In this document: piece after piece, positions 1 to 62,365 of the stretch
Numbering within the stretch: the stretch's first letter is position 1
Layout of the letters: the number at the start of each line of letters is the position of its first letter
Source: Chiloscyllium plagiosum
Taxonomy: Eukaryota
Length of the DNA stretch: 64,000 bases
NCBI RefSeq assembly: GCF_004010195.1
Contig: NC_057718.1
Location: 70,515,025 to 70,579,024, forward strand
Direction of reading: 5' to 3'
The notes under the pieces: model-generated
Databases searched by the model: none
Told to the model about the DNA's origin: nothing
The model's input: only the letters and a program-made list of their open reading frames with translations
Position numbers and translations under genes: made by a program

Positions 1-527
1 TTAGCATACAAATGAAAAAATCAACCGAGGCTGTAATCACGTAGAATGTGTGCAGGGATGGTGCTTAAGGAAATAATTGGAGCAAAGACTCATCATGCAA
101 GATTTAGTGAGAATCTCAAGATATTTGAGAATATCAAGGGCAAGAGAATAACCAGGGAAAGAATTGAGCAAATTAGCTGTCCTCCGGTCCTCTGTCTGAT
201 GTGGTTTCATTTACTTTTTAATAAAAGGATGGTAGAGAATCCAAGGAAATAAAAGGCAGCAAGTCTCTCGTTAGTGATAGGAAAGCTGTTGGGGGAAAAA
301 AGAATTCTGAAAGAGAATTGAATTTCTAACTTAGAAATGCTAGATGTACAGCACAGAAACTGACCCTTCAGTCCACCTCATCCATGCTGACTGCGTATCC
401 TAATCTATTCTAGTCCTATTTGCCAGCACTTGGCCCATATATCCCTCCAAACCCTTCCTATTCATATACCTATCCAGATGCCTTTTTAAATATTGCCATT
501 GTACTAGCCTCCACTAAATCCTCTGGG

Positions 528-746
528 ATTCTGGATCAGTGGTGCTGGAAGAGCACAGCAATTCAGGCAGCATTCGAGGACAGGCAAAATTGACGTTTTG
601 GGCAAAAGTCCTTTTTATTCCTGATGAAGGGCTTTTGCCCGAAACGTCGATTTTTGCCTGTCCTCGGATGCTGCCTGAATTGCTGTGCTCTTCCAGCACC
701 ACTGATCCAGAATCTGGTTTCCAGCATCTGCAGTCATTGTTTTTAC
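528..746. mobile_element. Short Penelope-like terminal-repeat insertion; fold-back structure with hammerhead core and 14-bp TSD
   Basis: 527-612 is the reverse complement of ~628-714. Flanked by ctaaatcctctggg (514-527) and ctaaatccactggg (747-760). Same sequence as the tail of the GIY-YIG element at 2010-2105. Confidence 0.85.
621..648 (+). ncRNA. Minimal type I hammerhead ribozyme core (PLE-associated)
   Basis: CTGATGA-A-GGGC-TTTT-GCCC-GAAACGTC: both conserved boxes, stem II, ACGU palindrome in place of stem III, GUC cleavage triplet. Stem I is weak (2-3 bp). Confidence 0.7.
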
Positions 747-1236
747 CTAAATCCACTGGGAGCTCATTCCATACACGCACCACCCTCTGTGTGAAAAAGT
801 TGCCCTTATCTAAATTAAACTCCATCTGCCACTCCTCAGCCCATTGGCCTAGCTGATCAAATCCCGATGTACTCGGGTATCCTTCGCTGTCCACTACACT
901 TCCAATTTTGGTGTCATCTGCAAATTAACTAACATTTCCTCCTATGTTCACGCCCAAATCACACTCACTGATCCTTGTGGCACACCACTGGTCACAGACC
1001 TCCAGTCTGAAAAGCAATCTTCCATCACTATGCTGTCTTCTATCTTTTTTGAGCTAGTTCTGTATCCAAATGGTTAGTTCTCCCTGTATGCCATGAAATC
1101 TAACCTTGCTAACCAGTCTCCCATGAGGAACTTTGTCGGACACCTTACTGAAGTCCATATAGATGACGTCCATCGCTCTACCTTCATCAATCCTCTTTGT
1201 TACTTCGAAAAGCTCAAGCAAGTTTGATACATGAAT

Positions 1237-2105
1237 ATGGAAAGTAATGGGTGGGTGTCCTGGAGATGTTCCCTAAAGCGCTCCACCACCAGGGATATAT
1301 TTCCCTCCCCACCCCTTTCTGCCTTCTGCAAAGACCGTTCCCTCCGTGACTACCTGGTCAGGTTCACGCCCCCCCGCCCCCAAAACCCACCCTCCCATCC
1401 TGGCACCTTGCCCTTCCACCGCAGGAACTGCAAAACCTGTGCCCACACCTCCTCCCTCGCCTCCATCCAAGGCCTTAAAGGAGCCTTCCACATCCATCAG
1501 TTTTACCTGCACATCCACTAATATCACTTATTGTATCCGTTGCTCCCGATGTGGTCTCTACGTTGGGGAGACTGGAGACCTCCTGTCAGAGCGCTTTTGG
1601 GAACGTCTCCGGGACACCCGCACCAATCAACCACACCGCCCTGTGGCCCAACATTTCAACTCCCCCTCCCACCCTGCCGAGGATATGGAGGTCCTGGGCC
1701 TCCTTCACTGCTGCTCCGTTACCACCAGACACCTGGAGGAAGAACGCCTCATCTTCCGCCTCGGAACACTTCAACCCCAGGGCATCAATGTGGACTTCAA
1801 CAGTTTCCTCATTTTCCCCTTCCCCCACCTCACCCTAGTTCTAAACTTCCAGCTCAGCACTGACCTACCTGCCACCTATCTTTTCCACCTATCCCCTCCA
1901 CCCTCCCCCGACCTATCACCTTCATCCCCTCCCCCAATCACCTATTGTACTCTATGCTACTTTCTCCACCCCCACCCTCTAGCTTATCTCTCCACGCTTC
2001 AGGCTCTCTGCCTTTATTCCTGATGAAGGGCTTTTGCCTGAAACGTCGATTTTTACTGCTCCTCGGATGCTGCCTGAACTGCTGTGCTCTTCCAGCACCA
2101 CTAAT
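1237..2105 (+). mobile_element. Penelope-like element 3' portion: GIY-YIG endonuclease plus terminal repeat, with short inverted 5' piece
   Basis: ORF 1346-2023 contains FTCTSTNITYCIRCSRCGLYVGETG...VAQHFNSPSH...EERLIFRLGTLQPQGINVDF; upstream CKTC Zn-knuckle suggests a Neptune-like PLE. 1249-1282 is an inverted copy of ~1590-1620. Confidence 0.9.
2020..2047 (+). ncRNA. Minimal hammerhead ribozyme core in PLE terminal repeat
   Basis: CTGATGA-A-GGGC-TTTT-GCCT-GAAACGTC. Confidence 0.65.
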
Positions 2106-2425
2106 CAAGGTATGTAGATAAGGCTAATGCAGTTGATGTGGTTTATATGGATTTCAGGAATGTCTTTGACAACGTTGCACATAAGTGATAGGGTAACTTG
2201 GCAAGTCAGATTCAAATTAGACTTGGGAGACTGGGTGGCAGTGGAAGAGTTTGTGCAGCTGGAGGCCACTGTTATGTGATGTACAGCAGGGATCAATATT
2301 GGGACCTTTTTTTATTGTTTGTGATCTGTATAACTGCTATAGGTGAGAATATTGTTCCCTTCTGAAATTTCAAAGAACAACTGTTTAAACTGAGCAAAGG
2401 GCATTAATTAGCAGGATGACTATTG

Positions 2426-3907
2426 GTAAAGTTAAAAATCTCAACACCAGGTTATAGTCCGACAGGTTTATTTGGGAGTGCTGCTCCTTAAGTAACTGTG
2501 GACCAGGGTCATGAGGCACAGAATTTATAGCACAAGATCAGCATCATGCATGCAACAAATGCAATATATTGAACAAACGTAGATTGCTGTAAAGTCTTTC
2601 ATCTTTAGAATGGGTTGCAGGTTTTGGTTCATTAATGTGTAAATCCCAAACTACTTTCTAATACATTCTCTAACTTAAGGCTTTAGAAAAAAAGTGACAT
2701 CTCAGCTCAGTGCATTAAAGGTGTGAGGTTAGAGTCTGTCTGTATCCCAATTTTGAGTCAGACTGGTTCTAAATCTAAAAGTAGGAATTTATAAAATGTT
2801 ACATTGGTTGACTGCCTGTGGATTGTGCTTTTTGAACAAAATACAATGTATCTGCGAATGTAAATTTACCTGTACACTTTTGTGTAAGCATGTGCCTCTT
2901 GTTGGGGGGGTAGTGACAGAGGGTATGCATGAGTGTATAGTGTAATGGGGTAACCTGTTGTGTGACATGAACCCAAGGTCCTGGTTGAGGCCATCCTCCT
3001 GAGTACTGAACTTGGCTATCAGCCTCTACTCGGCCACTTGGTGGTGGTGTTGTGTATCTTTGAAATCCGCCTTGGAGGATAGTCACTCAGAAATCTGAAG
3101 CCAAATGTCCTTAACTGCTGAAGTATTCCCCAACTATGAGGGAACATCCCTGTCTGATGTATGGATGCTAAGCAGATGCTGTGACAATTTTTGGTCTCAC
3201 CAATGTAACATGACTTGAGGCTTCCTTGCCTGCAGCGTATGAGACAACATTGGCTGAGTCACATGAGTACCTGCTGTTACATGGTGAGTGGTGTCATCAG
3301 GTGTAATGGTAATATCCATGTCATGTCTTGCAGTAGTTGCCCTGAGTGCTGTGTGGAGGTAGTGTTAATGTGACCCTACAGGTGACCCCACTACACTATA
3401 TATGGGGTGAATTTGCAGCATTGTAATTGAAGGTACGTTCTACTGTGCATTTTTGAACAAAATCTGTAGGTAGTCAATCTGTGATTCTATAATTTAAATT
3501 CCTACTTTGGAAATAGAACCAGTCTGACTCAAGATTGGGATACAGACAGACTCTAATCTCTCCTTTTTTTTTAATATATTGAGCTGAGATGTCACTTTTA
3601 TAAAACCTCCAAGTTATTATGTGAATATGATTTGAAAGATGTTCTGGGATTTACTTATTAATGAACTGAAACCTGCAACCCATTCTAAAGACTTAACAGC
3701 AATCTAGGTTTGTTCATTATATCTATTAGTTGCATGCGTGACACTGATCTTTTGCTATAAATTGTCTTACGACCCAATTCCACTCCTTACCTGATGAAGG
3801 AGCAGCACTCCAAAAGCTAGTGCTTCAAAATTAAACATGCTGGACTATAACCTAGTGTTGTGATTTTAACTTTGTCCACGCCAGTCTAATACTTGCTCCT
3901 CCACATC
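2426..3907. mobile_element. Second PLE family; ~1.5 kb inverted (fold-back) insertion with degenerate GIY-YIG on the minus arm
   Basis: ~2426-2870 is the reverse complement of ~3440-3875. Tail ctgatgaaggagcagcactccaaaagctagtg...ggactataacctagtgttgtg is shared with 54070-54195. atgactattg is repeated at 2416-2425 and 3908-3917. Confidence 0.75.
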
Positions 3908-4011
3908 ATGACTATTGTCAAGTCATTGCACTTTGCATTCCATATGGCAATACATGTTTGGTTTTGTTTGCAGAGGGCAGGTCATTGTGTATCAATGTGT
4001 AAGTGAACTAT

Positions 4012-4413
4012 GCTTAATGTGTTGCATTTTGCATTTCTTGCGGTTGCAGGGGAAGGTGGAGGGAGTGGTTTTTCCAGAACGCTGATGGGGGTGGGGAGGG
4101 AAATATATCCTTGGTGGTGGGGTCTGTTTGGAACACTTTAACTCCCACTCCGCCACGGACATGCAGGTCCTTGGCCGCTTCCATCGCCAGACCATGGCAA
4201 CACGACGCCTGGAGGAAGAGCGCCTCACCTTCCGCCTAGGAACCCTCCAATTACAAGGGATGAATGCAGATTTCTCCAGCTTTCTAATTTCCCCTTCCCC
4301 CACCTTTTCTCAGTCCCAACCCTCAGACTCAGCTGCTGCCTGACCCGCTGCGCTTTTCCAGCAACACATTTTTAAGCTCTGATCTCCAGCATCTGCAGTC
4401 CTCACTTTCTCCA
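4012..4413. mobile_element. Truncated PLE with inverted 5' segment and 14-bp TSD
   Basis: Peptide EHFNSHS...RRLEEERLTFRLGTLQLQGMNADF. tgtaagtgaactat at 3998-4011 and 4414-4427. Confidence 0.85.
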
Positions 4414-4702
4414 TGTAAGTGAACTATACCGAACCTGCCTGATTTTGGTTTTACACTTTTTTTGTGAATCCTAGCACTTGCAAGTGTAGATTATTTAAAT
4501 CCTTCACTTAAGTTGTCACGACTAAACAAGAGCCCACCCGCTCAGACATGGTCTTAAAAGAAGAATACACAAGTGTGTGTTGATATTTTTAAACAGGGTT
4601 CATTTAGGTGAGGGTGGATGGTGGTGGTCCTGGCCCAAAACATTGACTTTTCTTGCTTGATGCTGTCTGACCTGTAATCCTCCAGCCTCAAATATTGATT
4701 AT

Positions 4703-4993: not shown

Positions 4994-7422
4994 GGTTCTG
5001 TATTCAATGAGATATTAGGAGTTTAGTAGTGTTTTCTGAGCTCCATACATTAATGTCCTTTATCATTGCCTGATTATTGTAGTGAAGTTCTTTCATAAGA
5101 ACTAGGAGCAGGTGTAGGCCATCTGGCCCTTCAAGCCTGCTCAGCCACAATCTTATTGAATTGCGGATCATTTTGTGGCCTCAGCTCTGCTAACCCACCC
5201 TCTCACCATAACCCTTAATTGCTTTACTGTTCCTATATTTCAGAATAATGCTTCATCTGACTGCACCTTCACCTTCAATCACCTTCCTAACCCTCTTTAT
5301 TGAGTTAGTGAAGTATATTTTGAAATCTTCTGTGGAATTCAGTCCACTTGGATCTCTCCCTGCCTCCTCAGCCTATCCTTGTTAGATCTTTAATAGGAAT
5401 GCTAGTATGATGTCCATCTCCATTTGTTAACTCTGACTCAGTCTAATGAATTTACCTGAGTGTAGCATTCATTTCTCCAGTTGAACATTGATATTAAATA
5501 TGTTTGTGATGATTTCCCATACCGCTACCGATATGGCCATTTCTGGAGATCTTCCCTTCAAGACTAACCACCTTTGCTGATTCTACCTTCACATGATCAC
5601 ATCAAGACTAAACAAATCCATCCCGTCAGCTTATTCACAAAGATTTGTCTTTTTTCCCGTCCAATTTCTTCTTATCCACTTATACAACATTTTACGATGC
5701 CCTCCTGCATTTTCTGACCCTAACTGTCCCCTTTTTTCCACAAGCAAATATAAATTGGATGATGGTTCTGTGGATTCTGTCCAGTCTGCAAGTGTGACCC
5801 TAAGTTTCCTGTTGCTTCTAATTTTAATGCAATGCTCCCACATTAAACACTCCGCTTCCTACATTCATCCTGTGAAGCTGAGGATGAGCTCCTAATTTCT
5901 TTACAGTATTCTCGGCTCTATATTAAATTTGACAACTTAGACTATCTCTATCATTTCCTTTTTCGAACAGCAACTGTTGATTTTTCTCCTACTGCTGTTT
6001 AAATAGCCTCCAGTTCTTCATTCCTCCTGAATGCTGTCCCTCATTCACTTTCCTTTTTCTTCACACAACCCCCCCCCCCCCCCAAACTCCCAGAGCATTA
6101 GCTTGTATCTAACCTGTTAATCTTGAATTCTTCCATTTTGATGGAAAACCTGGAGAGTCGAGCTTCTGTTTTCCACAGATTTGCTCAATCAGAATTAAAG
6201 CCACTGAATAAGTATTGATTGTTACTTTTGACCTTTTTTAAAATCAATACTGAAACTCCCTCTATACAGTGCAAGTGGACCTCATAGAGGCAAATTTTTA
6301 TTTTTGAAATTCTAGTAGTTTAACTTTTTTTGAGTATCTTGATGAAAACAATTCATAGTGTCACCTTTTGGAATTGAATAAATGCTAACTGAGGTTTTTT
6401 TTGAGGTACAAATGTATTCTGCAGCTAACTTACTAAACAAAACCTGAGCTATTTATATATTGTCCATTACCATTTTCCCACCTCTTTAGAGTGGTCATCT
6501 TGCATTCAACAGGTGTCATTGTCTGGTTGTCATTGTATATTTTTGGCATTGGCAAGTTGTCAAACTACTTTACTGGATTGGCTGCCAGACCTGCTGAGTT
6601 CCTGCACTTTGTTTTGATTTCGATCCCCAGCATCGCAGTACTTTGTTTATGTAACTTGGAGTTTGGCGCAGTGATGCGTATTTTGGGATTTAATTTAATG
6701 CAAGGATGCACAAGTTAAAATCCCATGATATTTTCCACAGTTTGTTTGTTTTTTGCTGAGGTGGAATCCTTTTGAGTCTATTTTGAGCTTTTAGATGGAG
6801 GAAAACGTGATTCAGGACAGATTTTTAAGTTTAGTTCCTTTTGTTCAACTTTTTAAAAAAGTATCGTCATTGCTGCTTTTTATAAAAAAAACCATGACAT
6901 TGCATGTCGTGGATTCCATTTTAATATCTCTGGGCTCCTTTCTGTGATCATATTCAAAATTGATTTAAAGTGAAAGATGCTGTATAGAAAATGGAAGGAA
7001 TATGTTAAATTTACAGAATGGACATTTGACAAACTAGCTTCAATATAAGTAAAAGCAAGAATATCCCCATCTCATGCTTTCTAATAAGCATCTTCGGGTG
7101 AGAGGGACAGAGGAATCTGGGGGAATAAATCACTAAACATAGCACTACAGGGCAATGAAGATAATTTAAAACACAACAGGAGCAGGAGTGAACTACGTGG
7201 AATTTGTCTTTGGTGTCATTCAATAAAATCAGTGACCTCCATCTATTTTCCAGAATTGTTTCCTGACAATCAGCAACAGGACCACTTGCTTAACACTTCA
7301 ATACTGAAAGTGGAAGGAATATGTTCCCTCACAAATACATCCCTCACTGATGTATTTGTGCTAAATCCTGTTGAGCACTGCTTGAAGTGCCTAAAGAATA
7401 ATAAGAGTATGTACTCTGGATA

Positions 7423-7619
7423 GAGTCAGTGGTGCTGGAAAAGCACAGCCAGTCAGGAGAGTTGATGTCTCGAGCATAAGCTCCTGATGAAGAGCTTATG
7501 CTCAAAACATCAACTGTCTTGCTCCTCTGCTGCCTGACTGGCTGGCTGTGTTTTTCCAGCACCACTTTTTTTTTTTACTCTGACTCTGATCGCCAGCATT
7601 TGTAGTCCTCACTTTCTCC
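7423..7619. mobile_element. Short PLE fold-back insertion with decayed hammerhead and 13-bp TSD
   Basis: tgtactctggata at 7410-7422 and 7620-7632; inversion centre immediately 5' of CTGATGA (7484-7490). Confidence 0.8.
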
Positions 7620-8399
7620 TGTACTCTGGATAATCACTTGCAGTGCCTATCACCAAGAGGGACTTGACACTAAACTGGCCATGTCCTGGAGGACATCACT
7701 TGTGGCAGGACTTATCCAGCAGTTATGAGGGAGAACCCACTTGTAACAATTTGTCACAGATATCTGGACATGACGGTATTGATATGTGACCACCGTAAAG
7801 TCCTTGTGAAGTTGTCCTCTCTTTGCACTCTGGGTATAGATCTAACAGCTCAGTATTAGACATCCCAGATCTGTTGTGTGCCGTCACCAGAATTGCGTTA
7901 ATCAATTAGTAATTTCAAGGCCTGGGTATAAGTACCCATTTTAAGTTTTTTTTTGTTAATTTTGAAGTCATGATTTCTAGGACTGGAATTCCAATTTAAG
8001 TTCAGCTCTAAGTAATTTTGATTGTTCTACATTTTGCGTTGAATTGACTCCTGGTCCTGTGACTTTGGCACCATTCTGAATCTGTTGCGAGGATAAGGAT
8101 TTGATCACCGTCAGGTTGATGGTTTTGTTTGAAAGATTTGAGGGAGGGGGTGTTATGGAACTTTTTTTTCAAGAAGATTAAGTGAATCAGCTTTTTGTTT
8201 TGAGGAAGGTGGGGCTTGGGTCACTGAAATCTGCAAGCTGATATTTAAACTTTGGAACTCCAGCTGTGCCCGTGGTGAAACTCCATGTCAGTTGAGGCAA
8301 AGGCCATTTTCAAGTCTTTTGAAGGAGCTGGAGCAGTTGCTACCGTACCATAAACATGTTGGGACTGAAAAATACAGGGTTCTCTCAGAAGTTTAATTC

Positions 8400-14989: not shown

Positions 14990-15580
14990 TGGCACGTGGA
15001 ATTGAATATAGATAAGTGTAGCTGTTGCATTTTGGAAAGTCAAATGCAGGTGGGAGTTTCTGGTAGGGCATTAAGGAGTGTAGTGGAATAGAAAGACCTT
15101 TTGGTGTTCAGGTACACATTTCTCTGAAAGTGGAGTCACAGACAAGGCAGTGAAGGCAGCTTTTGGCACACTGGCCTTCAGCCAGGACACTGAGTATAGA
15201 AGTTGGGAATTTGTTGCAGTAATACAGAATGTTGGTGTTCAGTTTTGATCGCTTTGCTATAGAAAGGATGTTACTAAACTGGAAAGAATGCAGAAGAAAT
15301 TTACAAGGATGTTGCCAGGGCTCGACAATCTGAGGTTGAAGTTGGTCAAGCGAACATTACTTTTCTTTTAAAGCCTAGGAGACTGAGGGGAGGATCTTTT
15401 TATTAGTGGCAGATAAGATCATGAGGTATGGATAGGGTGATTGCACTTATTAACCACCCGACCCCACACTCAACACTGCACTCTGTCTTTTCCCCCAGGT
15501 TGGGGAGCCAAGGGGGAGGGGAAAATACATGGGAACCTGAGGGACAAGTATTTTTAAGCAGGATGGTATCCAAGTGGAAT
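14990..15580 (+). mobile_element. CR1 LINE 3' fragment
   Basis: Homologous to the CR1 ORF2 C-terminal region (ttgcattttggaaag...aaagtggagtcacag...tttacaaggatgttgccagg). Confidence 0.7.
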
Positions 15581-15583
15581 GAG

Positions 15584-16016
15584 TAGGTGAAAGTGAGGAC
15601 TCTAGATCCTGGAGATTTAGAGTCAAGGTTAGTGTGGTGCTGGAAATGCATAGGTCAGGCAGCATCAGAGGAATAGAAAAATTGACATTTCGGGCAGGAG
15701 CACTTCATCAGGAATGAGGCTGGAAGCCTCTGAGGTAGAGAGATAAATGGAGGGGTGGGGCTGGGGAGAAGGTAGCTGGGAGTGCAATATAGCTGGATGG
15801 AAGAAGGGGTAAAGCTGATAGGTCGGAAAGGAGGGTGGAGCGGATAGGTGGGACATGTCATGAGGATGGTGCTGAGCTGGAAGTTTGGAACTGGGGTAAG
15901 GTGTGGGGAGGGGAAATGATGCCCTGGGGTTGAAGGGTCCTGAGGTGGAAGCGCTTTTGCCCGAAATGTCGAGTCTCTGGACTCTAATCTCCAGCATCTG
16001 CGGTCCTCACCTTTTG
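15584..16016. mobile_element. PLE insertion with element 3' termini at both ends (inverted); minus-strand hammerhead remnant at 15684-15711
   Basis: aaagtgaggact...ggagat at the left end, atctccagcatctgcggtcctcacctttt at the right end; body is the reverse complement of 1780-2100. Confidence 0.75.
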
Positions 16017-16750: not shown

Positions 16751-19673
16751 GACAGAGGATGGAGAAAAATTTCTGACTAACAGGCAATTTCTTTTGAGGT
16801 ATTTTAGGTGTTTGAGGTGGTTTTCTCTAATTCCAGGAGCAGCAATTACTGTTTTGTATACTATTGTATTGCATTGTTTTGGAACTTTTGGAGGAAAAAA
16901 AAGTCAAAACAACAGCACTTGTAAAAGGGAGAGGCACAGACAAAAGCAGCACATGGTCAATCAGTGCACGGGAGAGAGAGAGAGAAAGAAACCCACATTG
17001 CTTCCTGACACAGCTGTGAACCTGCACAGTTACTACCTTTTTTGCTCTTTTGAATTAATGTGTTGCTGGACAACTGAGTGTCTGGGAAAATTTAACAACA
17101 TGAAATTCTTAACTGATCTTGGAGGAACCTGTTTGGGAGAGGTGACAGCACAAAACCAGATGTGAATAGTTTGGTATGGTCTTAAAGTCTGCAGTAGTGA
17201 GTAGAATGGGTTCTTTCTTGATTATGTTTTATGGAGGTATCTCATGGCAATTTTAAGTTAGCCTGGAGCAGTGTTTTGTAGAGGAATAAGACAGTGCTAT
17301 TTTCTGTGTCTATAGATTGAAAGAAGCAAAAGTGGCCTTTAGTAGAGTGATTTGCTTTTGTATGATGTGGGAGTTTCGAGAGTTTGTGATACTAAGGATT
17401 ATATCTGCATAAATGCCGTTGGTTGAGAATCCTATCAGATCGAATGGATTGGTTGGAGAGACTGAGAGAAGCAATGAGGAATTTACAAGAGCAAGGGGGT
17501 GTGATGGATAGTGGTTATAGGAAGGGAGAAAAGCTGCAGATACAGTCACCCAGGTAGATTAACTCCAAAAAAGGTAAGAGGTAGGCAGGTAGTGCAGACA
17601 TCTTCTGTTGTTATACCCATTTCAAACAAGTATGTTGTGCTGGAAAATGTGATGGTTTCTCCGGGGAATGTAGCATGAACAGCCAAGTTTCTGGTATCAA
17701 GACTGGCTCTAATGCAATGCGGGGTATGTCGGGTTCAAAGAGATTAATTGCATTAGGGGACTGTCGTCTGAGACACAGATGTTTCTGTGGCCAGCAGCGA
17801 AAGATAAGAATGGTGCGTTGTCTCCCTGGTGCCAGGATTAAGGATGTCTGAGGGTGCAGAATGCCTTCAAAAGAGGAGGGGGCTCAGCAGGTGGTCACTG
17901 TATACCTTGGAACCAATGAAGGGGAAAGGATTAGATTCTGAAGGGCGACTATAGTGTTAGGCAGGAATTTTAAAAAGGTCTTCCAATTTGGATTACTCCT
18001 GGTGCTGCAAGCTAGTGAAGGTAGGAATAGGAGGATAGAGCAGATAAATGCCTGGCTGAGGAGCTGGTGTATGGGAGAAGGATTCAATTTTTGGATCATT
18101 GGAATCTGTTCTGGGGTAGAACTGACCTGTACAAGAAGGACAGATTGCATCTGAATTGGAAGGAGACTAATATACTGGCAAAGAGATTAGCTGGAGCTGT
18201 TCAGGAGGGCTTAAACTAGTAAGGCGGTGGGGGGTGGGACCCAAGGAGATAGTGAGGGAAGAGATTAATCTGAGACTGGTACATTTTCAGAAAGGAATAG
18301 TGAAACCGTCGACTGGTACATTTTCAGAAAGGAATAGAGTGAAACCGTCTGGGCAAGCAGGGACAGAGCAGATAACAAGGTAGGATTGATGAATTAAACT
18401 GCATTTATTTCAATGCAAGAGACCTAATTGGGAAGGAAGATGAACTCAGGGCATAGTTAGAACATTGGGACTGAGATATCATAGCAATTACAGAATGTGG
18501 CTCAGGAATGGACAGGACTGGCAGCTTAATGTTCCAGGATATAAATGCTCCAAGAAGGACTGAAAGGGGACAAGAGCGGAAGGGAAGTGGTGTTTTTGAT
18601 CAGGGATACCATTACGACTGTACTGAGGGAGAATATTCCTGGTAATACATCCAGGGAAGTTATTTGAGTGGAAGTGAGATACATAGGGATGATCACCTTT
18701 ATTGGGATTGTATCGTAGACCCCCCTAATAGTCAGCAGGAAATTGAGAAACAAATTTGAGGAGATCTGTTATCTGTAAGAATAATAGGATGGTTATGGTG
18801 GAGGATTCTCTACCTCTATGGTAGAGGACAGAGAGAGAGAGAGATTTTAGTTTTAGAATAGCGATTAGAAAAGGATGGACCAGATCTAAATGTTGACGTT
18901 CTAAATTGGAGGAAGGCTAATTTTGATGGTATTAGGCAAGAACTTTCGAAAGCTGATTGGGGGCAGATGTTCACAGGTAAAGGGACGACTGGAAAATGGG
19001 TAGCCTTCAGGCATGACATAACGAGAGTCCAGAGAAAGTATATTCCTGTTAGGGTGAAAGGAAAGGCTGGTAGGTGTCGGGAATGCTGGATGACTAAAGA
19101 AATTAAGGGTTTGGTTAAGAAAAAGGAGTCCTTTTAAAGTATAAAGGTGGTAAGAGTATACTCTAGGGAATTCAGGAGAGCAAAAAGGGGACATGAGATA
19201 GCTTTGGCAAATAGGGTTAAGGAGAATCCAAAGGGTTTTTACAAATACATTAAAGACAAACTGGTGAATAGGGCTCCTCAAAGATCAGCAAGGCGTCCTT
19301 TGTGTGGAGCTGCAGGAGATACTAAACAAGTATTTTGCATCAGTGTTTTCTGTGAAGGACATGAAAACATAGAATGGAGGGAAATAGATGGTGACATCTT
19401 GGGGGAAAAAAATGTCCAGTATTACAGAAGAGGAGATGATGGATGTCTTGAAATTCTTAAGTGGATAAATCCCCAGAACCTGATCAGGCATACCCTAGAA
19501 CTCTGTGGGAAGCTCGGGTAGTGATTAGGCTCCTTGCTGAGATATTTGTATCATCGATAGTCACAAGTGAAGTGCCAGAATACTGGAGGTTGGCTAATGT
19601 GATGCCACTATTTCAGCAAGGTGGTAAGCATAAACCAGGGAATTGTAGACCAGTGAGCCTGATGTCAGTGGTG

Positions 19674-19813
19674 AGAAAGTGAGGTCTACAGATGCTGGAG
19701 ATCAGAGCTGGAAATGTGTTGCTGGAAAAGCGCAGCAGGTCAGGCAGCATCCAGGGAACAGGAGAATCGACGTTTCGGGTATAAGCCCTTCTTCAGGAAG
19801 GTCAGTGGCAAAG
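19674..19813 (-). mobile_element. Short PLE terminal-repeat insertion with hammerhead core (19769-19796, minus)
   Basis: Reverse complement reads CTGAAGA-A-GGGC-TTAT-ACCC-GAAACGTC. gtcagtggtg at 19664-19673 and 19814-19823. Confidence 0.8.
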
Positions 19814-21004
19814 GTCAGTGGTGGGCAAATTGTTAGAGGGAATCCTGAAGGACAGGGTTAGGGATAGTCGTCATGGCTTTGAGTGGGAAATCATGTCAAG
19901 AGGATTGATATGGGCAGAGCAGTAGACTTATCTATATGGACTTCAGTAAGGTGTTTGACAAGGGTACCCATGAGAGACTGGTTAGAAAGGTTAAATCTCA
20001 TTGAATACAGGGAGAGCTAGCCATTTGGATACAGAACTGGCTTGAAGGTAGAAGACAGAGGGTGGAGGATTGTCTTTCAGACTGGAGGCCTGTGACCAGT
20101 GAAGTGCCACAAGAATCGGTGTTGGGTCCACTACTTTTCGTTATTTATACAAATGACTTGGATGTGAGCATAAGAGTTATAGTTAGTAAGTTTGCAGATG
20201 ACACCAAAATTGGAGGTATGGTGGACAGCAAAGAAGGTTACCTCTGATTACGATGGGATCTTAATCAAATGGGCCAATTGACTGAGTGGCAGATGGAGTT
20301 TAATTTAGATATTCATGAGGTGCTGCATTTTGGGAAAGCAAATCTTAGCAGGACTTATACACTTAATGGTAAGGTCCTGGGGAGTGTTGCTGAACAAAGA
20401 GACCTTGGAGTGCAGGTTCATAGCTCCTTGAAAGTGGAGTCACAGGTAGATTGCAAACACTCTTCACTATCCTATCCTATCCTATGCTTTCCTTTATCAG
20501 TCAGAGTTTTGAGTACAGGCGTTTGGGTGGTCATGTGGCTGTACAGGACATTGGTTAGGCCACCGTTGGAATATTGCGTGCAATTATGGTCGTCTTTCTA
20601 TCAGAAAGATGTTGTGAAACTTGGAAGGGTTCAGAAAAGATTTACAAGGATTTTGCCAGAGTTGGAGGATTTGAGCTACAGGGAGAAGTGAAAGGCGGAG
20701 CTGTTTTTCCCTGGACCGTCAGGCTGAGGGCTGACCTCCTAGAGGTTTATAAAAACACCAAAGGGCATGGAGTGGGGAGTCCAGAACTAGAGGGCATAGG
20801 TTTAGAGTGAGGGGAAAGATATGAGCGACCCAAAGGGGCAACGTTTTCACTCAGGGTGGTACGTGTATGGAATGAGCTGCCAGGGGAAGTGTTGGAGGCT
20901 AGTACAATTGCAACACTTATAAGGCATCTGGATGGGTATATCAATAAGAATGTTTTGGAGAGATATGCGACGGGTGCTGGCAGATGGGTTGGGATATTTG
21001 GTCG

Positions 21005-21089: not shown

Positions 21090-21209
21090 GGGATATTTGG
21101 TCGGCATGGACGAGCTGAACTGAAGGGTCTGTTTCCATGCAGTTTCTGACTCTATATACGTTTCAAAGCCTACCCAATAAAGTCACTTTGGGATTACCCA
21201 ATTTTTTTT

Positions 21210-42440: not shown

Positions 42441-45041
42441 CCCACAGTGGATTACCCAACCTCCTGCAAAAATGCTATCCTTTATTCCCAATTCCTCTAC
42501 CTCCACCGCATCTGCTCCCAGGAGGACCTGTTCCACCACAGAACACGCCAGATGGCCTCCTTCTTTAAAGACCAATTTCCCCTCCCACGTGGGGGTTGAT
42601 ACCCTCCAGCGCATCTCATCCACTTCCTACACTTCTGCCCTTGAACCCCCACCCCTCCAACCGCGATGACAGAACCCCCTACTCCTCACCATCATCCTTT
42701 GTCCTCTTTATCATCCTCCACCATTTCCACAACCTACTCCAGCACCAGAGATATTTCCCTCCCCACCCCACCTGCTTTCCATAAAGACAGAAGTTAAGTT
42801 CCCTCCACAACTGCATCGTCAGGTCCACGCCCCCCCACCCCAACTTCATCCTAAGCCCCAAAGAAGCCATCAAAGTTTCACCTGCACTTCCATACATCTC
42901 ACTTACTGTATCCATTGCTGCTGATGCAGTCTCCTCTGCGTTGAGGAGATAGGATACCTACTCACCGAGCGTTTCAACGAATGTCTCTAAAACACCCGGA
43001 CCAACCAACTCCACCAGCCCGTGGCTGAACACATCAACTTCCCCTCCTGCTTTGCTGAGGGCATGCAGGTCCTGGGCCGCCTCCACTGCCACTCCTTATC
43101 ACCCAATGCCTGGAGGAAGAATGCCTCATCCTCTGCTTCGGGACTCCAACTCTGATATCAATGTGGATTTCACCAGTTTCATCATTTTTCTTTCCCCCCC
43201 CTGCCCCACCTTATCCCAGTTCCAACCTTCCAGCTTAGCACCGCCTTCATGACCTGTCCCATCTGTCTATCTTCCTTACAACCTATCACCTTTTAACCCC
43301 ACCTATTGTACTCTCCAATACCGTTCTCCCCCAGCCCCACCGTCCTCCCGTTTCCACCCGAGGCTCCCAGCCTCATGCCTGATGAAGGGCTTTTGCCTGA
43401 AACGTCAATTTTCCTGCTCCTTGGATGCTGCCTGAGCTGTGTTTTTCCAGCACCACACTCTCTTGACCCTTGCATGTCATCAACCTGAGCTACAAATATT
43501 CTCAAATCGTTAGGTGTATCAATTTTAGGCTGTGGCCAACCGCTGGAAGATGTGAAAAGGAATAGGCCATCTGGCCCCTTGAGGCTGCTTTGCTGTTCAA
43601 CAGGTTCTTGGTTGATCTTTTTGTGGACTCACTCCACTTACCCACCTGCTCACTATAATCTTCAATTCCTTTACTATTCAAAACTCTGTCTACCTTTTGC
43701 CTTAAATACATTCAACAACATAACTTCAGTTGCTTTACTGGATAGAGAATTCCACAGATTCACAACCTTTTGGGAGAAGAAGTTTCTCCTCAACTCATTC
43801 CTAAATCCGCTCCCCCTTTTTATTTTTGAGGCTGTGACCCTTAGTTCTAGTTTCACCTGGTAGTGGAAACAACCTCTCTGTTTCTATCTTATCTATTCTC
43901 TTCATAATTATAAGTTTCTACAAGCTTCCCCACCATTCTAAATTCCAATGTGTATAGTCCCAGTCTACTCTCTCTCCTCATAAGCCAACTATCCCCATTC
44001 CAGAATCAACGTAGTGATCTCTTCAACACCCCTTCCAGTGCTAATATATCCTTTTTCAAGTAAGGAGATCAAAACTGTATGCAATATTCCAGGTGTGATT
44101 TCACTAGCTGCAGCGTAACCACCTTGTTTTTAAACTCTTGCCCTCTAGCAATGAAGGACAGTATTCCATTTGCCTCCTTAATTGATCTGCAGGCACAGAT
44201 AATGTTGTGTGATTCATGCACAAGGACACCCAGGTCCCTCTGCACAGCAGCATGCTGTAATTTCTTTTTACCGGTCCCTCTGCACAGCAGCATGCTGTAA
44301 TTTTTTTTTTACCACTTTATATTCCATTTTGCTGTTTATTCCAACCAAAGTGGATGACCTCCCATTTATTGAATTTGTACTCCATCTGCCAGACCCATTC
44401 TATAATTCTACTGCAGACTTTCAATGTCCTCTGTACACTTCACTGGACTACTCATTTTAGTGTCATCTGTGAATTTTGACACATTACACTTGATCCACAA
44501 CTCCAAATCATCTCTAAATTGTAAACAATTGCAGCCCAAACACTCAGCTCCATATAGAAAAGCACCTGTTTGTCCCCACTCTTGTGCTGTTAACCAATCC
44601 TCTATACATCCTTATACATTACCTGAAATGCTGTGTCTTACACAGCAGCCTTGTGTGCAGGACTTAGTTGAATTCTTTCTGAAAATCCACAAAACACCCC
44701 ATCCACTGGTTCCCATTGTCCACTGCACTCATAATGTCCTCAAAGAATTTGAATAAATTAGTTCAACGTGACCAATCTTTTCATGAACCAGTGCTGCTTG
44801 AATAGTTTGTCTGAATGTCTCACTATTTATTCCTTAATAGATTCACGCATTTTCCCCACTACAAAAATTAGGTTAACTATAGAACTGTTAGCTTATCTTT
44901 TGTCTACCTCCATTTTTCTAAACAGTGGTGTTGCTTGCTAGTTTCCAATCTGCTGTAACTGCCCCCAAAGTCCATCAAATTTAGTGAATTACCATGAGCG
45001 CATTTGCTATTTTCCCCTACCCTGGGATGCATTTCATCAGG

Positions 45042-45174
45042 TTCTGAATCAGTGGTGCTGGAAGAGCACAGCAATTCAGGCAGCATCCGAGGACAGGCAG
45101 CCTGAATTGTTGTGCTCTTCCAGCACCACTGATCCAGAATCTGGTTTCCAGCATCTGCAGTCATTGTTTTTACC
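45042..45174. mobile_element. 133-bp PLE fold-back insertion (no hammerhead core), perfect 14-bp TSD
   Basis: tgcatttcatcagg at 45028-45041 and 45175-45188. Confidence 0.85.
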
Positions 45175-46288
45175 TGCATTTCATCAGGGCCAGGCGATGT
45201 CTGTCTTTAGTCTCATTAGCTTGCCTAACGTTACCTGATTAGTGACAATGATCGATCCTCTGTCCTCACCTTCCATAGCCTCCTTGTCACCAATTATTGG
45301 CATGTTTATTGTCTTCAAATGTGAAGACTGATACAAAACACCTGTTCAATGCATCAGCCATTTCCTCACATCCATTATTAAATGCGCCTTCAAATCCTCT
45401 AAAGGACCAATGTTTATCTTAGCCTCTATTTTTGGCTTTATATATTTATAAACATTTTTGCTATCTGTTTTTATATTATGAGCTAATTTACCCTCAATCC
45501 ATCTTGCCTTTCTTTAGTGTTTTTTTTTGTGTGGCTTTCCTTTTTACCACTTAAAGATTTCCCAATCCTTTAGTTTCTACTCATCTTTGCAACTCTGTAT
45601 TTGCTTCCAATTTTATACCCTCCTTTTCTTTCCTTTAGTTATCTATGGCTAATTATCCCTTTCCTAGTCTTTCCTTTTTCAGTGGTAGAATATTTTTGCT
45701 GAACAATGAAAAATTTTGAAAGTTTTTTTTTAGATTTGATTAGATTAGATTACTTACAGGGTGGAAACAGGCCCTTCGGCCCAACAAGTCCACACTGACC
45801 CGTCGAAGCGCAACCCACCTATGCCCCACCCCCAAACCATCCCACTGTAGTCTCCTCTGTTTAAGCGCAAAACATTGGTATTGGATTTTTGCTTCTCTCC
45901 CACCATCTGTATTTTAAATTCAACCCTACTGTTATTGCTCCTTCAGAGAAGGTCCTTAACTGAGACATTAATTATTCCTGTCACTTTTTTATACGGGACC
46001 AGATCTAGGATAGCTTATTCCCTCGTAGGTTCCTCGAACAATGGGTAATGGAACCTATCGTGGATACATTCTCGAGGAACTTCTCCTCAAGGCTGCCTTG
46101 ACTGACCTTGTTTTGACCAATCAATATGTAGATTAAAATTCCCCATAATAATTGTTGTACCATTTTCACATCAATTGTTTTCTTTTATTGCCTGTTCCAC
46201 CGTGGTATTTGGTGGCCTATAGACTACATCTATCGATGACATTTTCTCCTTTTTATTATTTCTAATTTCCACCCACATAGTTCTGTAG

Positions 46289-47949: not shown

Positions 47950-50110
47950 TCTGAGACAATCCTCCTCACTTTCAACAACATCGCCAAGCTGTGTCTTCTG
48001 CAAACTTTGACTATAGAGGGTATAATCCCATTCAAGTCATTAATGATCATCATAAACAAGGATACTAGCACTGATCCCTGTCGTACATCACTAGTTAGAC
48101 TTACATTCACACAAACCAGCTGCATCCATCAGCCTTTTGCCTTCTATTTGCAAACCAGTTTTACATCCACTTTGCCAACTTGTCTTGGGTCCCATGGGCT
48201 CTACCTTTTCTTTTTGGCCCAGCCTTCCATGTGGGACCTTTTCAAAAGCCTTAATGAAGTCCATGTAGACATCAAATGCACTGCCCTTATCAAAATATTT
48301 AATCACCTTATCAAAAAAACTTGTCAAGCAAAATCTCCCTCTAACAAAACCATGCTGACTATCCTGTCTCTCAAAATCTCTTCCAATAATTCCCCTGTAA
48401 CTGTCATACTACCAGGTCTGTAATGACCTGGCATAAGCCTGCTGTCCGTCCTGAACAAAGGTACTAAATAGCCAGCCTTCAGCCATCTGGCACTTCACCT
48501 ATGGCCAGCAAAGTATTAAATATCTCGGCAAGCTCAGCACCTCAGCAAGCTACTCCCTTGCCTCTTGTTGCAGCAGGGATGCATCTTCTCAGGCCTTTTG
48601 GATTTATTCACTTTTTTATTTGCCTGCTAGGTCATCTAATATATTTTATTAATCTTAACATATTCCAGGATCTCAATACACCAACTGAAATCCCCAGCTT
48701 CAATGTCTTCCTACTTCGTGAATACAGATAAGAAATATTTATTTAAGACCTCACCCACATCCATGCTCAGTTTGCCCCTTTAGTTTGTAATAGTCCCCTT
48801 GGTAATCATCTTTGACTCAATATACTTGCTAAACCCCAAGGCATTTTCCTTAACCCTATGTGCCAAGGGTATTACATCACCTCTTTTTGCCATCCTCCTT
48901 TTAAGCACCCCTCATCCTCCTGAAGGCTATGCTGTTTTAAGTACTGTACCAAACATTTCTTCCTCCTTTATCAAACTGTCTATCCCCTGACATCTAAGGT
49001 TTCCCGCACTTGCTACTCTTGCCCTTCGCTCTTAGAGGAACACCTTGGCTCTTAGAGGAACACCTTGCTTTTCCAAATGTAGACTTGCTTGCAAATAGCT
49101 GCTCCCGATCTGTTTGCCAGATCCTATATATCTATTCTTAGAGGAGAAAGTGAGGTCTGCAGATGCTGGAGATCAGAGCTGAAAATGTGTTGCTGGAAAA
49201 GCGCAGCGCTGTGCTTTTCATATCTATTCTTAGCCCTTTCATAATGACTTTGAAACTCCCCAAAATGCTCACTCACTTGACTGGTTCATTCCCCTAAAAT
49301 TAGGTCTATCTATATACAGGCACAAAAAGCTCTTGTGATTGCACTTTAAAAATTCCAGCCCATCTTATTCTTTCACACTAAAGCAATCCTAGATAATGTT
49401 GGTGCATTTGAATTTCCCCTAAGAGTTTGTCTCACTACTTGTGATTTGCGTACATATTTGCTCCTTTCATTCCTTCTGGAAGGCCAGCAGTATAATACCA
49501 ACAAAGCAATTGAATGCTTTTTTTTGCTTTCTTTCTAAGCTGCTTCGAGCACTGCCTCATCCGCAGAGCCTGTTAGGACATCATCTCTCACATCATTGAT
49601 GGTTTCCTTTTTAATCAATAATGCAGTGCCTCCACTACCTTTTCTCTCATCCATATCCACCCCCAACTAACCAATCACACCTGAGCTTTTATACCCTGGA
49701 AAGTTTGAGGTGCTAGCCTGCCCTTCAACTATGTCTCATTTGATTGCAACAATATACAGATCAATGTTTAACGTTAGTCTTACCAGTCAGGCTCCAAGCA
49801 TTAAAATAGATGCAGTTCAGCTCTTACTTCCACATGCCTTTATCATGCCTAGGTCTCTTCCACTTGCTAGACTGTCCTACTATGTGTCCTACATCTGAAT
49901 GGTCTTTGATCCTGACGTTGCCTCTACTCTGTGCACCATCCCCTCCCAAAGTAATTAAATCTCTTCAACAGCAGGAGAAACTGTTCCAGCCAAGATATTG
50001 GCCCATTCCAGTTCACCAGCCCAGCTTGTACAGGCCCCACCTCCACCATAAATATGCCAGTGATCCAAAAGGCAAAAACTCCCTCCTACATAACCCTTTT
50101 AACCAGGCAT
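47950..50110 (-). mobile_element. Old CR1 LINE body
   Basis: VYMDFIKAFEKVPHGRL and VRQGSVLVSLFMMIINDL on the minus strand. Confidence 0.75.
49142..49219 (-). mobile_element. 78-bp PLE tail insertion with micro-inversion, perfect 14-bp TSD
   Basis: atatctattcttag at 49128-49141 and 49220-49233; gaaaagcgcagcgctgtgcttttc hairpin at the element 5' end. Confidence 0.85.
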
Positions 50111-59875: not shown

Positions 59876-59971
59876 GTAGTTAAAACAGTTGGCCTACGAG
59901 AGATCTGGTATTTTGGACTCCAGTATATAGACAACAAAGGATATCCCAACTGGTTAAAGCTTGAGAAAAAG
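59876..59971 (+). CDS. ezr: ERM-family (ezrin-like) next coding exon, 96 nt, phase 0/0: [32 protein letters not shown]
   Basis: T-tract + TACAG acceptor (59871-59875), GTAAAT donor at 59972; splices in frame to 39907. WYFG, DNKG and P-x-WLKL resemble ezrin ([22 protein letters not shown]) more than radixin or moesin (WFFG...STWLKLNKK). Confidence 0.93.
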
Positions 59972-60337
59972 GTAAATGCACTTTTAAGTCTTGATTATGA
60001 TCAGAGTAGTTCTTTTTCATTTCAAGCAGGTGATCTTGGGGTTCCCCCCCCATCTAATTTTAATTTCATTTTTCTTTTCTCAATGGCAGGGATAAAAGTA
60101 ACTTATTCAAAACTACCCTCCTTGTTTTTGCCATCAAAGTAGAATGTGATTTAATGCTCTTCTACAGGATGTTACAGTTTAGTACTTTCATACAAAGTAT
60201 GATGTTGGCTTTTGCATGCCAAGGAATGGTTGTCATTGTGGATGTGGATTTTTCAGGTCCAGAGTACCAGGTGTAATGTAAACTTTGTGTTTGCAATATT
60301 GGTGGTAAACTGAATTGTGCAAATTGAAAGAAGCTGG

Positions 60338-60448
60338 AGACGGTCAGGACTACAAATGCTGGAAACCAAAGTATGTCAGTGTGAAGCTGGAAAAGCACAG
60401 CAGGTTAGACAGCATCTAAGACTACTGTGTTTTTCCAGATTCACAGCT
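60338..60448. mobile_element. PLE tail fold-back insertion, perfect 15-bp TSD
   Basis: attgaaagaagctgg at 60323-60337 and 60449-60463; gtgaagctggaaaagcacagcag and ctactgtgtttttccagattcac form an inverted pair. Confidence 0.8.
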
Positions 60449-61779
60449 ATTGAAAGAAGCTGGCCACTTGCTTTCTATATTTAAAGCATAGAAATCAAGA
60501 GGAAAAACTTGTTCATTACTCAAGTTTTCAGTTTATAAATATTTTTCAAAGTTCTCAACCTCCTTGCTTTTGGGTTAATTCGACTAAAATATAGTTGCTG
60601 ATTGAGGGATATAACCATGAAAGTCTTGCATTGACGCACGTGATCAATCACCCAGTTCTATGCACATTAGCTTGTTGCTAAAACAATCCAATAATATTCA
60701 GTCTGTTACCCCTGGTTGTACCATAACTTTCCTGTGGTGAGTATTCCATATGCTAACAAAGCTTTGCTATTTTTCGTCGGTGCAGAAAAGAAGCTAATTA
60801 TTTAGCCTGTTGTTCCTGTGCCAGCAATCTGAAAGATTTGTCCACTGAGTACCATTTCTACAATATCCTCAAACTTTGTAAATTTTCCTTCAACTTTTTA
60901 TCAAGTTCTTGATTCTGCTCCCACTGCCTCTTTTAGATCCTAGATCATGGTTGGAAAAAACTGTATGTCACGAAGTCCTCTGAATTGTCACACGGCTGTC
61001 ATGCTGATTTGTGTAGAGTGTTGTGACCAAATAGATGCTTGGCGTTTTAATGTTTACGACAACAGCATATTGCATTAATTGCATTCTTTAATTTTAAAAT
61101 GTTTAAAAGGAGTTAAAATTGTGTTGATCATTTTCTTTAAAGATCAAAATTCAACTTTGTGAACCACTTCTGACAATATAATTTAAACCAATATTCAATT
61201 TAAAGCTGCCTAATTGAAAATCCATCTTGTGTATTGATCTTGAACAGCTGCATCAAGTCTCTCCAACTGGGCTTTGCCATCCCTAGTACTGTCCTAGTCC
61301 ATCTCTTCTGTCCCCTTTCTCAGGCAATGAAATCATTCTTAAAATGTGCCTAGAATTGAATGCAGCACAGTAACTTAAATCTAAAATATATTTTTGGAAA
61401 GGTTTAGCATAACTTTGTACTGTGCTTCTATAAAGCCAAGAGCTTATGTTTCACACTAACTTCAAATATTTGTGTGCACATTTCTCCTCCTCACAGACAG
61501 CTACCATACTCCCTTAGTAAAACTGTATTAGTACTTGTTACAGAAATGCACCACATGGTGCTTTCCAGAGCCCTTGTTTGTCCTGTCCAATTGCATCCTA
61601 CGTCATTTATCTGGATTGCATTCTGTTTGACTTTTGGTAAAAGGGAGTAAGTTTTTAAAGGTGATATAAAACAAATCTTTGCAAGAAGACTGAGCTTCTG
61701 GTTGCCTACCATTTCAATGCAGCACCATGTTTCCTGACCAATATTCCTGTCTTGGGCTTGATAAGTGCTTCAGCAAAGC

Positions 61780-62365
61780 TCTGTGCAAGCTGAAAGAACA
61801 GCATCTTATTTTTCAGCTTTGACAAAGGGTCAGTTAGACTTGAAATGTCAGCTCTTTTCTCTCCTTGCAGATGCTGCCAGACCTGCTGAGATTTTCCAGC
61901 ATTTTCTCTTTGGTTTCAGATTCCAACATCTGCAGTAATTTGCTTTTATCTTATTTTTCTACTTGGGAACTCCGCAACCTTCTTGACTCAAATATAGGGC
62001 CCTACAACTTGGTGCCTGTGCACTTTCTCCCACATCCTCGGTAGAACCAGGCACTGCCATCATGTGGACTGCGAGCATAAACAATCCATTGTCAGCCACT
62101 AATGGTCACCATTAGCAGCAATCCATTATCCCAGGCTGACCTTTTATCCATTCCTTAGCTCAACTGGTTTTCTCTCTGAGCTTCATCTCTACTTATCACT
62201 GAATCCCCTAATTGCCACAAGCACGTGCGCACCTTCTCTAGCATGTATGCCAACTTTTCCCAGCCACAATCAGCTCTGAAGAGGGGTCACAGGATCAATG
62301 TAAATCCTGCTTTCTCTTCACTGATGCTGCCAGATCAAGTTTTTTTCCAGCAATTTGATTTTGTT
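61780..62365 (+). mobile_element. Old PLE 3' end with a nested PLE tail (61815-61947, 12-bp TSD)
   Basis: KEQHLIF.LGTPQP remnant split by the insert; atcttatttttc at 61803-61814 and 61948-61959; decayed ctgaagaggggtc core at ~62276. Confidence 0.65.

What the first reader, a model, noticed from the sequence alone, without database searches (positions are those of the whole stretch)
514..61959. PLE insertions share a target-site duplication length centred on 14 bp
Seen: 514-527/747-760 (14, one mismatch), 3998-4011/4414-4427 (14), 7410-7422/7620-7632 (13), 20991-21004/21090-21103 (14), 41497-41510/42441-42454 (14), 45028-45041/45175-45188 (14), 49128-49141/49220-49233 (14), 60323-60337/60449-60463 (15), 61803-61814/61948-61959 (12), 30113-30125/30327-30339 (13, two mismatches), plus shorter or imperfect cases at 2416/3908, 19664/19814 and 37941/38047. 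The targets share no obvious sequence. Established: PLE TSDs are usually described as variable or absent. Inference: the GIY-YIG endonuclease/RT of these elements makes a fixed ~14-nt staggered cut, a mechanistic signature I do not know to be described for these families.
Basis: partly seen in the sequence, partly recalled or inferred. Interest (0 to 1): 0.7.

Follow-up and report, generated by a model that had tools for sequence, protein, structure and literature searches.

The report
Penelope insertions duplicate 13-14 target bases
In this stretch of a shark-like genome, Penelope-type jumping genes usually duplicate about 13-14 bases of the spot where they land and were not seen to duplicate more than 15, a preferred cut spacing like that already known for LINE jumping genes but shown here on only about a dozen copies.

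Summary
The repeats are real: all 13 listed pairs are present. 12 of 23 PLE remnants give a called TSD, against 0.8% of null pairs. Lengths are 10, 10, 12, 13x3, 14x5 and 15x2. Long TSDs would have been seen, so the ceiling near 15 is robust; TSDs of 9 bp or less mostly would not. Flat 7-20 or 10-20 models lose about 8 log-likelihood units to a 13-14 peak. 'Fixed 14', 'peak plus short tail' and 'flat 8-15' cannot be told apart. Uninterrupted host-repeat copies support a single target copy at 3 sites; 2 sites are ambiguous and 8 untestable. 11 of 13 cases belong to one Neptune-like lineage. Best reading: target-primed reverse transcription with a preferred second nick 13-14 nt away, sometimes trimmed. 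Clade-specific TSD peaks are established for LINEs (L1 13-15 bp, PMC4245944). PLE papers say 'variable' (PMC8557442), and ten searches showed no PLE histogram. No genome or reads were available, so the genome-wide test is still open. The scan noted these elements on other DNA before, but no note on TSD length surfaced.

The parts
514..761 (+). Fold-back Neptune-like stub (tail type A); TSD 514-528/747-761, 15 bp with 1 mismatch (about 11-15 after junction microhomology); inserted in the 3' end of a CR1-type LINE
2416..3917 (+). Fold-back copy of a separate PLE family with a GIY-YIG-like remnant on the minus arm; TSD 10 bp exact (2416-2425/3908-3917), ambiguous extension
3998..4427 (+). Neptune-like copy (tail type B) with a 5' inversion; TSD 14 bp exact
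7410..7632 (+). Fold-back stub (type B); TSD 13 bp exact
19664..19823 (-). Simple stub (type B) in a CR1-type RT region; TSD 10 bp exact plus about 13 nt of target-like filler at the 5' junction
20991..21103 (-). Tail-less stub in a CR1-type 3' end; TSD 14 bp exact
30113..30339 (+). Fold-back stub related to the Poseidon-like family; TSD 13 bp with 2 mismatches, not recovered by the automatic caller
35336..35482 (-).
37941..38059 (+). Tail-less stub; TSD 13 bp with 1 mismatch
41497..42454 (+). Fold-back copy (type B, with an N gap inside) nested in the RT region of an older Neptune-like copy; TSD 14 bp exact
45028..45188 (+). Fold-back stub (type A) in a minus-strand CR1-type RT region; TSD 14 bp exact
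49128..49233 (-). Stub (type B) with an 11-bp inverted 5' piece; TSD 14 bp exact
60323..60463 (-). Old fold-back stub; TSD 15 bp exact (about 13 after microhomology with the tail end)
61803..61959 (+). Simple stub (tail type C); TSD 12 bp exact
1240..2110 (+). Neptune-like 3' body: Cys linker, GIY-YIG endonuclease, pLTR with hammerhead-like core; no TSD found
41290..43465 (+). Decayed Neptune-like host copy in the order RT (YIDD), endonuclease, pLTR; no TSD found
31700..33140 (+). Two Poseidon-like 3' bodies with CCHH GIY-YIG; no TSD found
15569..16016 (-). PLE remnant with tails at both ends, lying between a LINE and a SINE fragment; no TSD found
34657..34762 (.). Degraded fold-back of the 2416 family; weak candidate TSD 11 bp with 1 mismatch (score 8, within the null range)
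59876..59971 (+). Host exon with a FERM N-terminal domain; a second likely exon lies at 39824-39907; the insertions lie in its introns or upstream
   Evidence: FERM_N E=7.4e-10; the ezrin/radixin/moesin label is recalled

Best explanation
These are true target-site duplications made by endonuclease-bearing Penelope-like retroelements, mostly one Neptune-like lineage, through target-primed reverse transcription with a preferred but not invariant nick spacing. Step 1 (inferred from PMC11167929): the GIY-YIG domain nicks one strand with little sequence preference, and RT starts at a fixed internal site of the RNA, the tail end, often with 0-2 matching bases. Step 2 (inferred): the other strand is nicked about 13-14 nt away, leaving 3' overhangs; the geometry of the protein-DNA complex caps this distance near 15. 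Step 3 (inferred): the second 3' end either joins the cDNA (simple stubs) or primes a second cDNA (fold-back copies, 9 of 13). Step 4 (inferred): fill-in copies the overhang. Trimming before joining gives the 10-12 bp cases, one of them with templated filler. Shown here: the repeats, their lengths, the ceiling, the shared tail ends and single-copy empty hosts at 3 sites. Not shown: the nicks themselves or what measures the distance.
For: Repeats far above null. 10 of 13 lengths fall in 13-15: p=1.3e-4 against flat 9-20, scan-adjusted 1.3e-3. None exceeds 15 although true TSDs of 16-25 bp are detected 78-100% of the time; p=3.8e-4 against flat 10-20. No long repeat was found in 250-bp flanks in 12 of 12 checks on remnants without a TSD. 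A '13/14 peak plus short tail' model is best at 1.5% and 3% divergence and within 1 unit of the best at 5%. Insert lengths run from 78 to 1482 bp with the same TSD range. Empty-host test: at 514 the one-copy junction aligns to 6 paralogs and outscores the two-copy form (140/137/131 against 113/110/104 bits); at 19664 it scores 49.1 against 41.0; the one-copy form keeps the host frame open at 19664 and 45028. Controls: 0 of 9 CR1-type stubs and 1 of 12 SINE copies gave a score >=10, the one being a 97-bp duplication. Precedent for LINE clades: PMC4245944.
Against: TSDs of 9 bp or less are missed (48% or less detected at 9 bp, 5% or less at 7 bp), so the true mode could lie lower or there could be a second short class. 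Flat 8-15 fits within 1-2 log units (p=0.046). At 20991 the two-copy form scored slightly higher against 2 of 3 paralogs because of an adjacent 11-nt deletion. At 41497 the two-copy form, not the one-copy form, restores the host frame; that has a 1-in-3 chance. 10 of 13 sites had no spanning DNA paralog. Rotifer Penelope TSDs are 8, 9 and 10 bp (PMC3846280), so 13-14 is not PLE-wide. The control limits were set by hand and have less power.
Confidence: 0.6

Rival explanations
1. Strictly fixed stagger: a dimeric RT-EN complex or a rigid ruler nicks both strands exactly 14 (or 13) nt apart, and all other lengths come from mutation, chance extension and microhomology.
For: Five exact 14-mers. A simulated fixed 14 at 3-6% divergence spreads over 10-17 and ranks second at 5%. 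An Anolis PLE protein cleaves and extends both strands in vitro and is predicted to be a dimer (PMC11167929).
Against: The TSD pairs show only 4 mismatches in 171 bases, which favours low divergence, where fixed 14 loses 3-6 log units. 19664 has an exact 10-mer bounded by the tail on one side and by filler on the other.
Confidence: 0.15
2. Variable spacing with only an upper limit: the second nick falls anywhere up to about 15 nt away, and the apparent peak comes from the detection floor plus selection by eye.
For: Flat 8-15 lies within 1-2 log units of the best model. 11 of 23 remnants have no called TSD. PMC8557442 describes the distance as variable; rotifer cases are 8-10 bp (PMC3846280).
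Against: TSDs of 10-12 bp are detectable (59-100% at 0-3% divergence), yet only 3 of 13 are that short. The remnants without a TSD are mostly old or lie between unrelated host pieces.
Confidence: 0.18
3. The stubs were mobilised in trans by an L1-clade LINE, whose TSD peak is 13-15 bp, so the length is a signature of L1 and not of the PLE.
For: The length range is the same as the L1 clade peak (PMC4245944).
Against: None of 13 targets matches TT/AAAA at more than 3 of 6 positions, and no element ends in a poly(A) run. The ends fall at shared PLE tail positions, as expected from the PLE's own internal start sites (PMC11167929).
Confidence: 0.04
4. Chance matches or pre-existing tandem repeats at the targets.
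For: 20991 and 41497 are ambiguous in the empty-host test.
Against: The null rate is 0.8% against 12 of 23. No uninterrupted paralog of 7 examined held the target twice.
Confidence: 0.02

Closest known systems
Clade-specific TSD peaks of LINEs and the 'specific-cleavage model' (Yamaguchi, Kajikawa and Okada 2014, PMC4245944)
   Same: TPRT elements have characteristic TSD peaks (L1 13-15, RTE 10-12, Nimb-2 about 12, L2/CR1 3-5 bp); shorter cases are explained by processing of the 3' overhang; L1 5' inversions keep long TSDs.
   Different: Here the element is a PLE with a GIY-YIG nuclease and a telomerase-like RT, with no poly(A) tail and no target motif.
Human L1 TPRT (Ghanim et al. 2025, PMC7617806; Kojima 2010, PMC2912911)
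   Same: The same protein nicks the second strand at a distance limited by its geometry; full-length L1 peaks at 14-16 bp; twin priming gives inversions.
   Different: L1 spans 7-20 nt and uses an unrelated nuclease with a TT/AAAA preference; the ceiling seen here is about 15.
Canonical EN+ PLE insertions (Craig et al. 2021, PMC8557442; Arkhipova et al. 2013, PMC3846280)
   Same: pLTR, optional 30-40 bp tail, adjacent inverted copy, short TSDs, hammerhead motif.
   Different: There the TSD is called variable, with examples of 8, 9 and 10 bp; no length distribution appears in the passages I saw.
Anolis Poseidon PAc in vitro (Frangieh et al. 2024, PMC11167929)
   Same: Internal RT start sites explain the tail; both strands are cleaved and extended.
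   Different: Nick spacing and TSDs are not mentioned (0 hits in the text and in 3 supplement files). Its ATT preference is not seen here: 6 of 26 nick zones against a 24% background.

Membership tests
EN+ Penelope-like elements | C-terminal GIY-YIG endonuclease | tested here: met
   Atlas first hits are GIY-YIG clusters at 0.95 for 1496-1828 and 31735-32037. Pfam GIY-YIG E=0.18 and 0.003, both below the cut-off.
EN+ Penelope-like elements | CCHH motif with two Cys between GIY and YIG | tested here: met
   Complete in the 31735 copy; both Cys and one His in the 1496 copy.
EN+ Penelope-like elements | RT upstream of EN in one ORF, in the PLE/TERT clade | tested here: inconclusive
   A YIDD-bearing fragment lies upstream of the EN in 41290-43465, but it has no Pfam RT hit and no tree was built.
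EN+ Penelope-like elements | pLTR with minimal hammerhead core | tested here: inconclusive
   A core-like motif around a short stem is seen in several copies; only 1 of 6 folds beats shuffles (z=-3.2). No Rfam hammerhead hit. Minimal forms are expected (PMC4209133).
EN+ Penelope-like elements | Optional 30-40 bp tail and adjacent inverted copy | tested here: met
   Shared tail ends in 12 aligned ends; inverted arms in 9 of 13 TSD-bearing copies.
Neptune clade | CX2-5CxxC linker upstream of EN | tested here: inconclusive
   CxxC with a mutated first Cys in the 1253 copy; the first two Cys in the inverted piece of 3998. The motif is shared with Nematis (PMC8557442); no RT phylogeny was done.
Element-specific second-strand cleavage (LINE-type) | Narrow TSD peak with an upper limit | tested here: met
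   one window, n=12-13.
Element-specific second-strand cleavage (LINE-type) | Peak travels with the element across hosts or in de novo insertions | not testable with these tools
   No genome, no reads laid, no relatives among 115 loci fetched.
L1-clade trans-mobilised retrocopies | TT/AAAA target and poly(A) tail | tested here: not met
   0 of 13 above 3 of 6 matches; at most 3 A in the last 8 nt.

The most novel reading that the evidence does not exclude
The PLE protein works as a two-headed complex that nicks both strands together, 13-14 nt apart. That distance equals about one helical turn plus the offset across the minor groove, so both nicks lie on one face of the helix (inference). Both 3' ends then prime reverse transcription at the element's internal start sites. 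One event would give both the constant TSD and the fold-back structure. The same spacing as L1, reached with an unrelated nuclease, would point to a DNA- or RT-imposed ruler common to target-primed reverse transcription. It predicts minor classes near 2-4 and 24 nt, and a tighter peak in fold-back than in simple copies.
Probability: 0.2. Interest if true: 0.65.

Novelty: new member of a known kind. Interest (0 to 1): 0.38.

Why it matters
How PLEs make and use the second nick is unresolved; PMC11167929 leaves the steps after first-strand synthesis unvalidated. A modal 13-14 nt stagger with a ceiling near 15 gives a number that the existing in vitro system and structure models can test. It would extend the LINE 'specific-cleavage' rule to a class with a different nuclease and RT, and it gives annotators a boundary signal. 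It would not be a new kind of system.

Tried and rejected
Whole-genome histogram: no genome is held. Public copies: the exact tail pattern found 0 matches in metagenome and viral contigs. A gapped pattern found 2 viral and 113 metagenome stretches, but none of the 115 loci aligned to the window at E<=1e-5, so they were treated as chance. Empty sites from reads: 22 runs of three coded organisms were listed, but no reads were laid, so orthologous empty sites remain untested. Rfam gave no hammerhead match. Pfam gave no RT hit on 4 short fragments. Target motif: none. The lean to purine at -1 (9 of 13) and the absence of G at +1 are confounded by microhomology with the tail ends. An element-blind scan for exact repeats 50-1600 bp apart also showed a 15-mer at 6992/7311 and a 14-mer at 2829/3450; the second lies within the 2416 fold-back and the first has no PLE between its copies, so neither was counted. 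34682 (score 8) was left out as within the null range, and 35360 was left out of all statistics. No structure or complex prediction was run, since the window holds no intact ORF. Look-ups in earlier findings for TSD length or stagger returned nothing relevant.
Full report
Setting. The window is repeat-rich intron DNA of a FERM-domain gene (exon 59876-59971, FERM_N E=7.4e-10; a second likely exon at 39824-39907). 'Shark-like' comes from earlier scan notes and from my recall of the SINE family; the labels CR1, HE1 and ezrin/radixin/moesin are recalled and come from no call. No whole genome is held, so every count below is from this 64-kb window.

Observation. All ten main pairs and the three imperfect ones are in the sequence. 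I mapped PLE remnants by BLAST of element pieces against the window and ran one caller on 50-bp zones at both ends of 23 remnants. 12 of 23 gave a repeat of score >=10, against 4 of 506 mismatched flank pairs and 16 of 1980 random positions. None of the 10 remnants I added was called. One of these, at 35360, has a 13-bp TSD with two mismatches, hidden because a 29-bp inversion flipped the left copy with the tail end; it is not in the statistics.

What the elements are. Two endonuclease remnants give GIY-YIG clusters as first Atlas hits (0.95), with weak Pfam support. The 31735 copy has the full CCHH motif. The 1253 copy has a CxxC linker before the nuclease. A decayed copy at 41290-43465 shows the order RT fragment, nuclease, pLTR. 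By the definitions in PMC8557442 these are Poseidon-like and Neptune- or Nematis-like PLEs; no RT tree was made. Nine of the TSD-bearing copies end at the tail shared by types A, B and C, and two more are tail-less stubs of that lineage, so 11 of 13 belong to one lineage. 9 of 13 have an inverted 5' arm. Hammerhead-like cores are present, but the folds are mostly not significant and Rfam has no hit.

Are they duplications made at insertion? Five sites lie in host repeats that can be checked. At 514 the one-copy junction aligns to six uninterrupted paralogs and outscores the two-copy form in the three direct comparisons. At 19664 the one-copy form scores 49.1 against 41.0 bits. The one-copy form keeps the host reading frame open at 19664 and 45028, and the two-copy form breaks it. 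Against this, at 20991 the two-copy form scores 3 bits higher against 2 of 3 paralogs, because the host has an 11-nt deletion beside the target; each paralog still holds one match only. At 41497 it is the two-copy form that restores a frame, which one case in three would do by chance. The other eight sites could not be tested. Public runs of three coded organisms exist, but no reads were laid.

Length distribution. The 13 lengths are 10, 10, 12, 13, 13, 13, 14, 14, 14, 14, 14, 15, 15 (mean 13.2, SD 1.6). Ten fall in 13-15: p=1.3e-4 against a flat 9-20, 1.3e-3 after allowing any 3-wide window, but only 0.046 against a flat 10-15. Simulation shows that TSDs of 16-25 bp would be found 78-100% of the time, while 9-bp ones are found at most 48% of the time and 7-bp ones at most 5%. 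Alignment of 250-bp flanks found no long repeat in 12 of 12 checks on remnants without a TSD. On the 12 called lengths, flat 7-20 and 10-20 models lose about 8 log-likelihood units at all three divergences tried. A 13/14 peak with a short tail is best at 1.5% and 3%. Fixed 14 loses about 6 and 3 units there but ranks second at 5%. Flat 8-15 stays within 1-2 units. The ceiling near 15 is therefore the firm result, the 13-14 mode is probable, and a fixed cut is unproven. Junction microhomology of 0-2 bases adds about one base of uncertainty to each value.

Controls and target. With the same caller, 0 of 9 CR1-type stubs and 1 of 12 SINE copies scored >=10; the one lies in an exact 97-bp duplication. 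This fits the 3-5 bp peak reported for CR1/L2 (PMC4245944), although these limits were set by hand. The targets are not AT-rich (p=0.35), do not match the L1 site, and have no poly(A) beside them; the ATT motif preferred by the Anolis protein is at background (6 of 26 zones against 24%). Mobilisation by L1 in trans is therefore rejected.

Mechanism. The best reading is target-primed reverse transcription from the fixed tail end, with a second nick preferred 13-14 nt away and occasional trimming. 19664 shows an exact 10-mer with target-like filler at its 5' joint, as the processing step in PMC4245944 would give. Fold-back copies have 10, 13, 13, 14, 14, 14, 14, 15 and 15 bp, and simple copies have 10, 12, 13 and 14 bp; these are too few to compare. 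Whether a dimer or a single protein measures the distance is open. PMC11167929 reports cleavage and extension of both strands and a predicted dimer, while PMC7617806 shows that L1 ORF2p nicks the second strand with its own endonuclease domain at +7, +11 and +19 in vitro. The helical-face argument in the novel case is my inference.

Literature seen. Ten searches were answered, and none showed a PLE TSD histogram or a 13-15 bp statement for PLEs. Most subscription papers, Repbase and Dfam are outside the library, so absence from print is not established. PMC11167929: parts 1-2 of 4 of the text, passages and a term search of 3 supplement files. PMC8557442: passages and a term search of 1 supplement file, with one Naiad entry listing a 4-base TSD; its preprint, passages. 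Passages only: PMC3846280, PMC4245944, PMC7617806, PMC2912911, PMC8969392, PMC13565253, PMC2377424, PMC12910113, PMC6765202, PMC4209133 and bioRxiv 10.64898/2026.07.22.740005. Figures were not visible, and the supplements of the preprints are closed; either could hold TSD lengths. Ichiyanagi and Okada 2008 is known to me only as cited in PMC4245944.

Verdict. This is a real and probably unreported quantitative trait of a known process: a LINE-like, element-specific TSD peak in a vertebrate PLE lineage. It is supported by about a dozen copies in one window. Interest 0.38.

Noticed in passing
window 35336-35364: A 29-bp micro-inversion bounded by 5-bp inverted repeats flips the tail end of a PLE stub together with its left TSD.
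   Followed up: yes
window 62397-62493 and 62554-62650: An exact 97-bp direct repeat flanks a 60-bp SINE fragment: a very long TSD, a tandem duplication or an assembly artefact.
   Followed up: partly
window 19800-19813: About 13 nt of filler resembling the target sit at the 5' joint of the PLE stub, as in templated insertions made during end joining.
   Followed up: partly
window 15569-16016: PLE remnant with a tail at both ends, joining a LINE fragment to a SINE 3' half without a TSD; possibly an insertion with a target deletion.
   Followed up: partly
window 528-746 and 45042-45174: Two fold-back copies begin their inverted arm at the same base, about 35 nt before the tail end, matching the two-start-site model of PMC11167929.
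   Followed up: partly
window 41750-42178: A 429-base N gap lies at the centre of a fold-back copy, so its interior is unresolved.
   Followed up: no
window 38400-39400, minus strand: A decayed coding remnant with Cys/His-rich stretches, possibly the 3' part of an L1/Tx1-type LINE (label recalled).
   Followed up: no
window 18271-18350, 44230-44310, 49030-49070: Short local tandem duplications of roughly 15-45 bp (read by eye).
   Followed up: no
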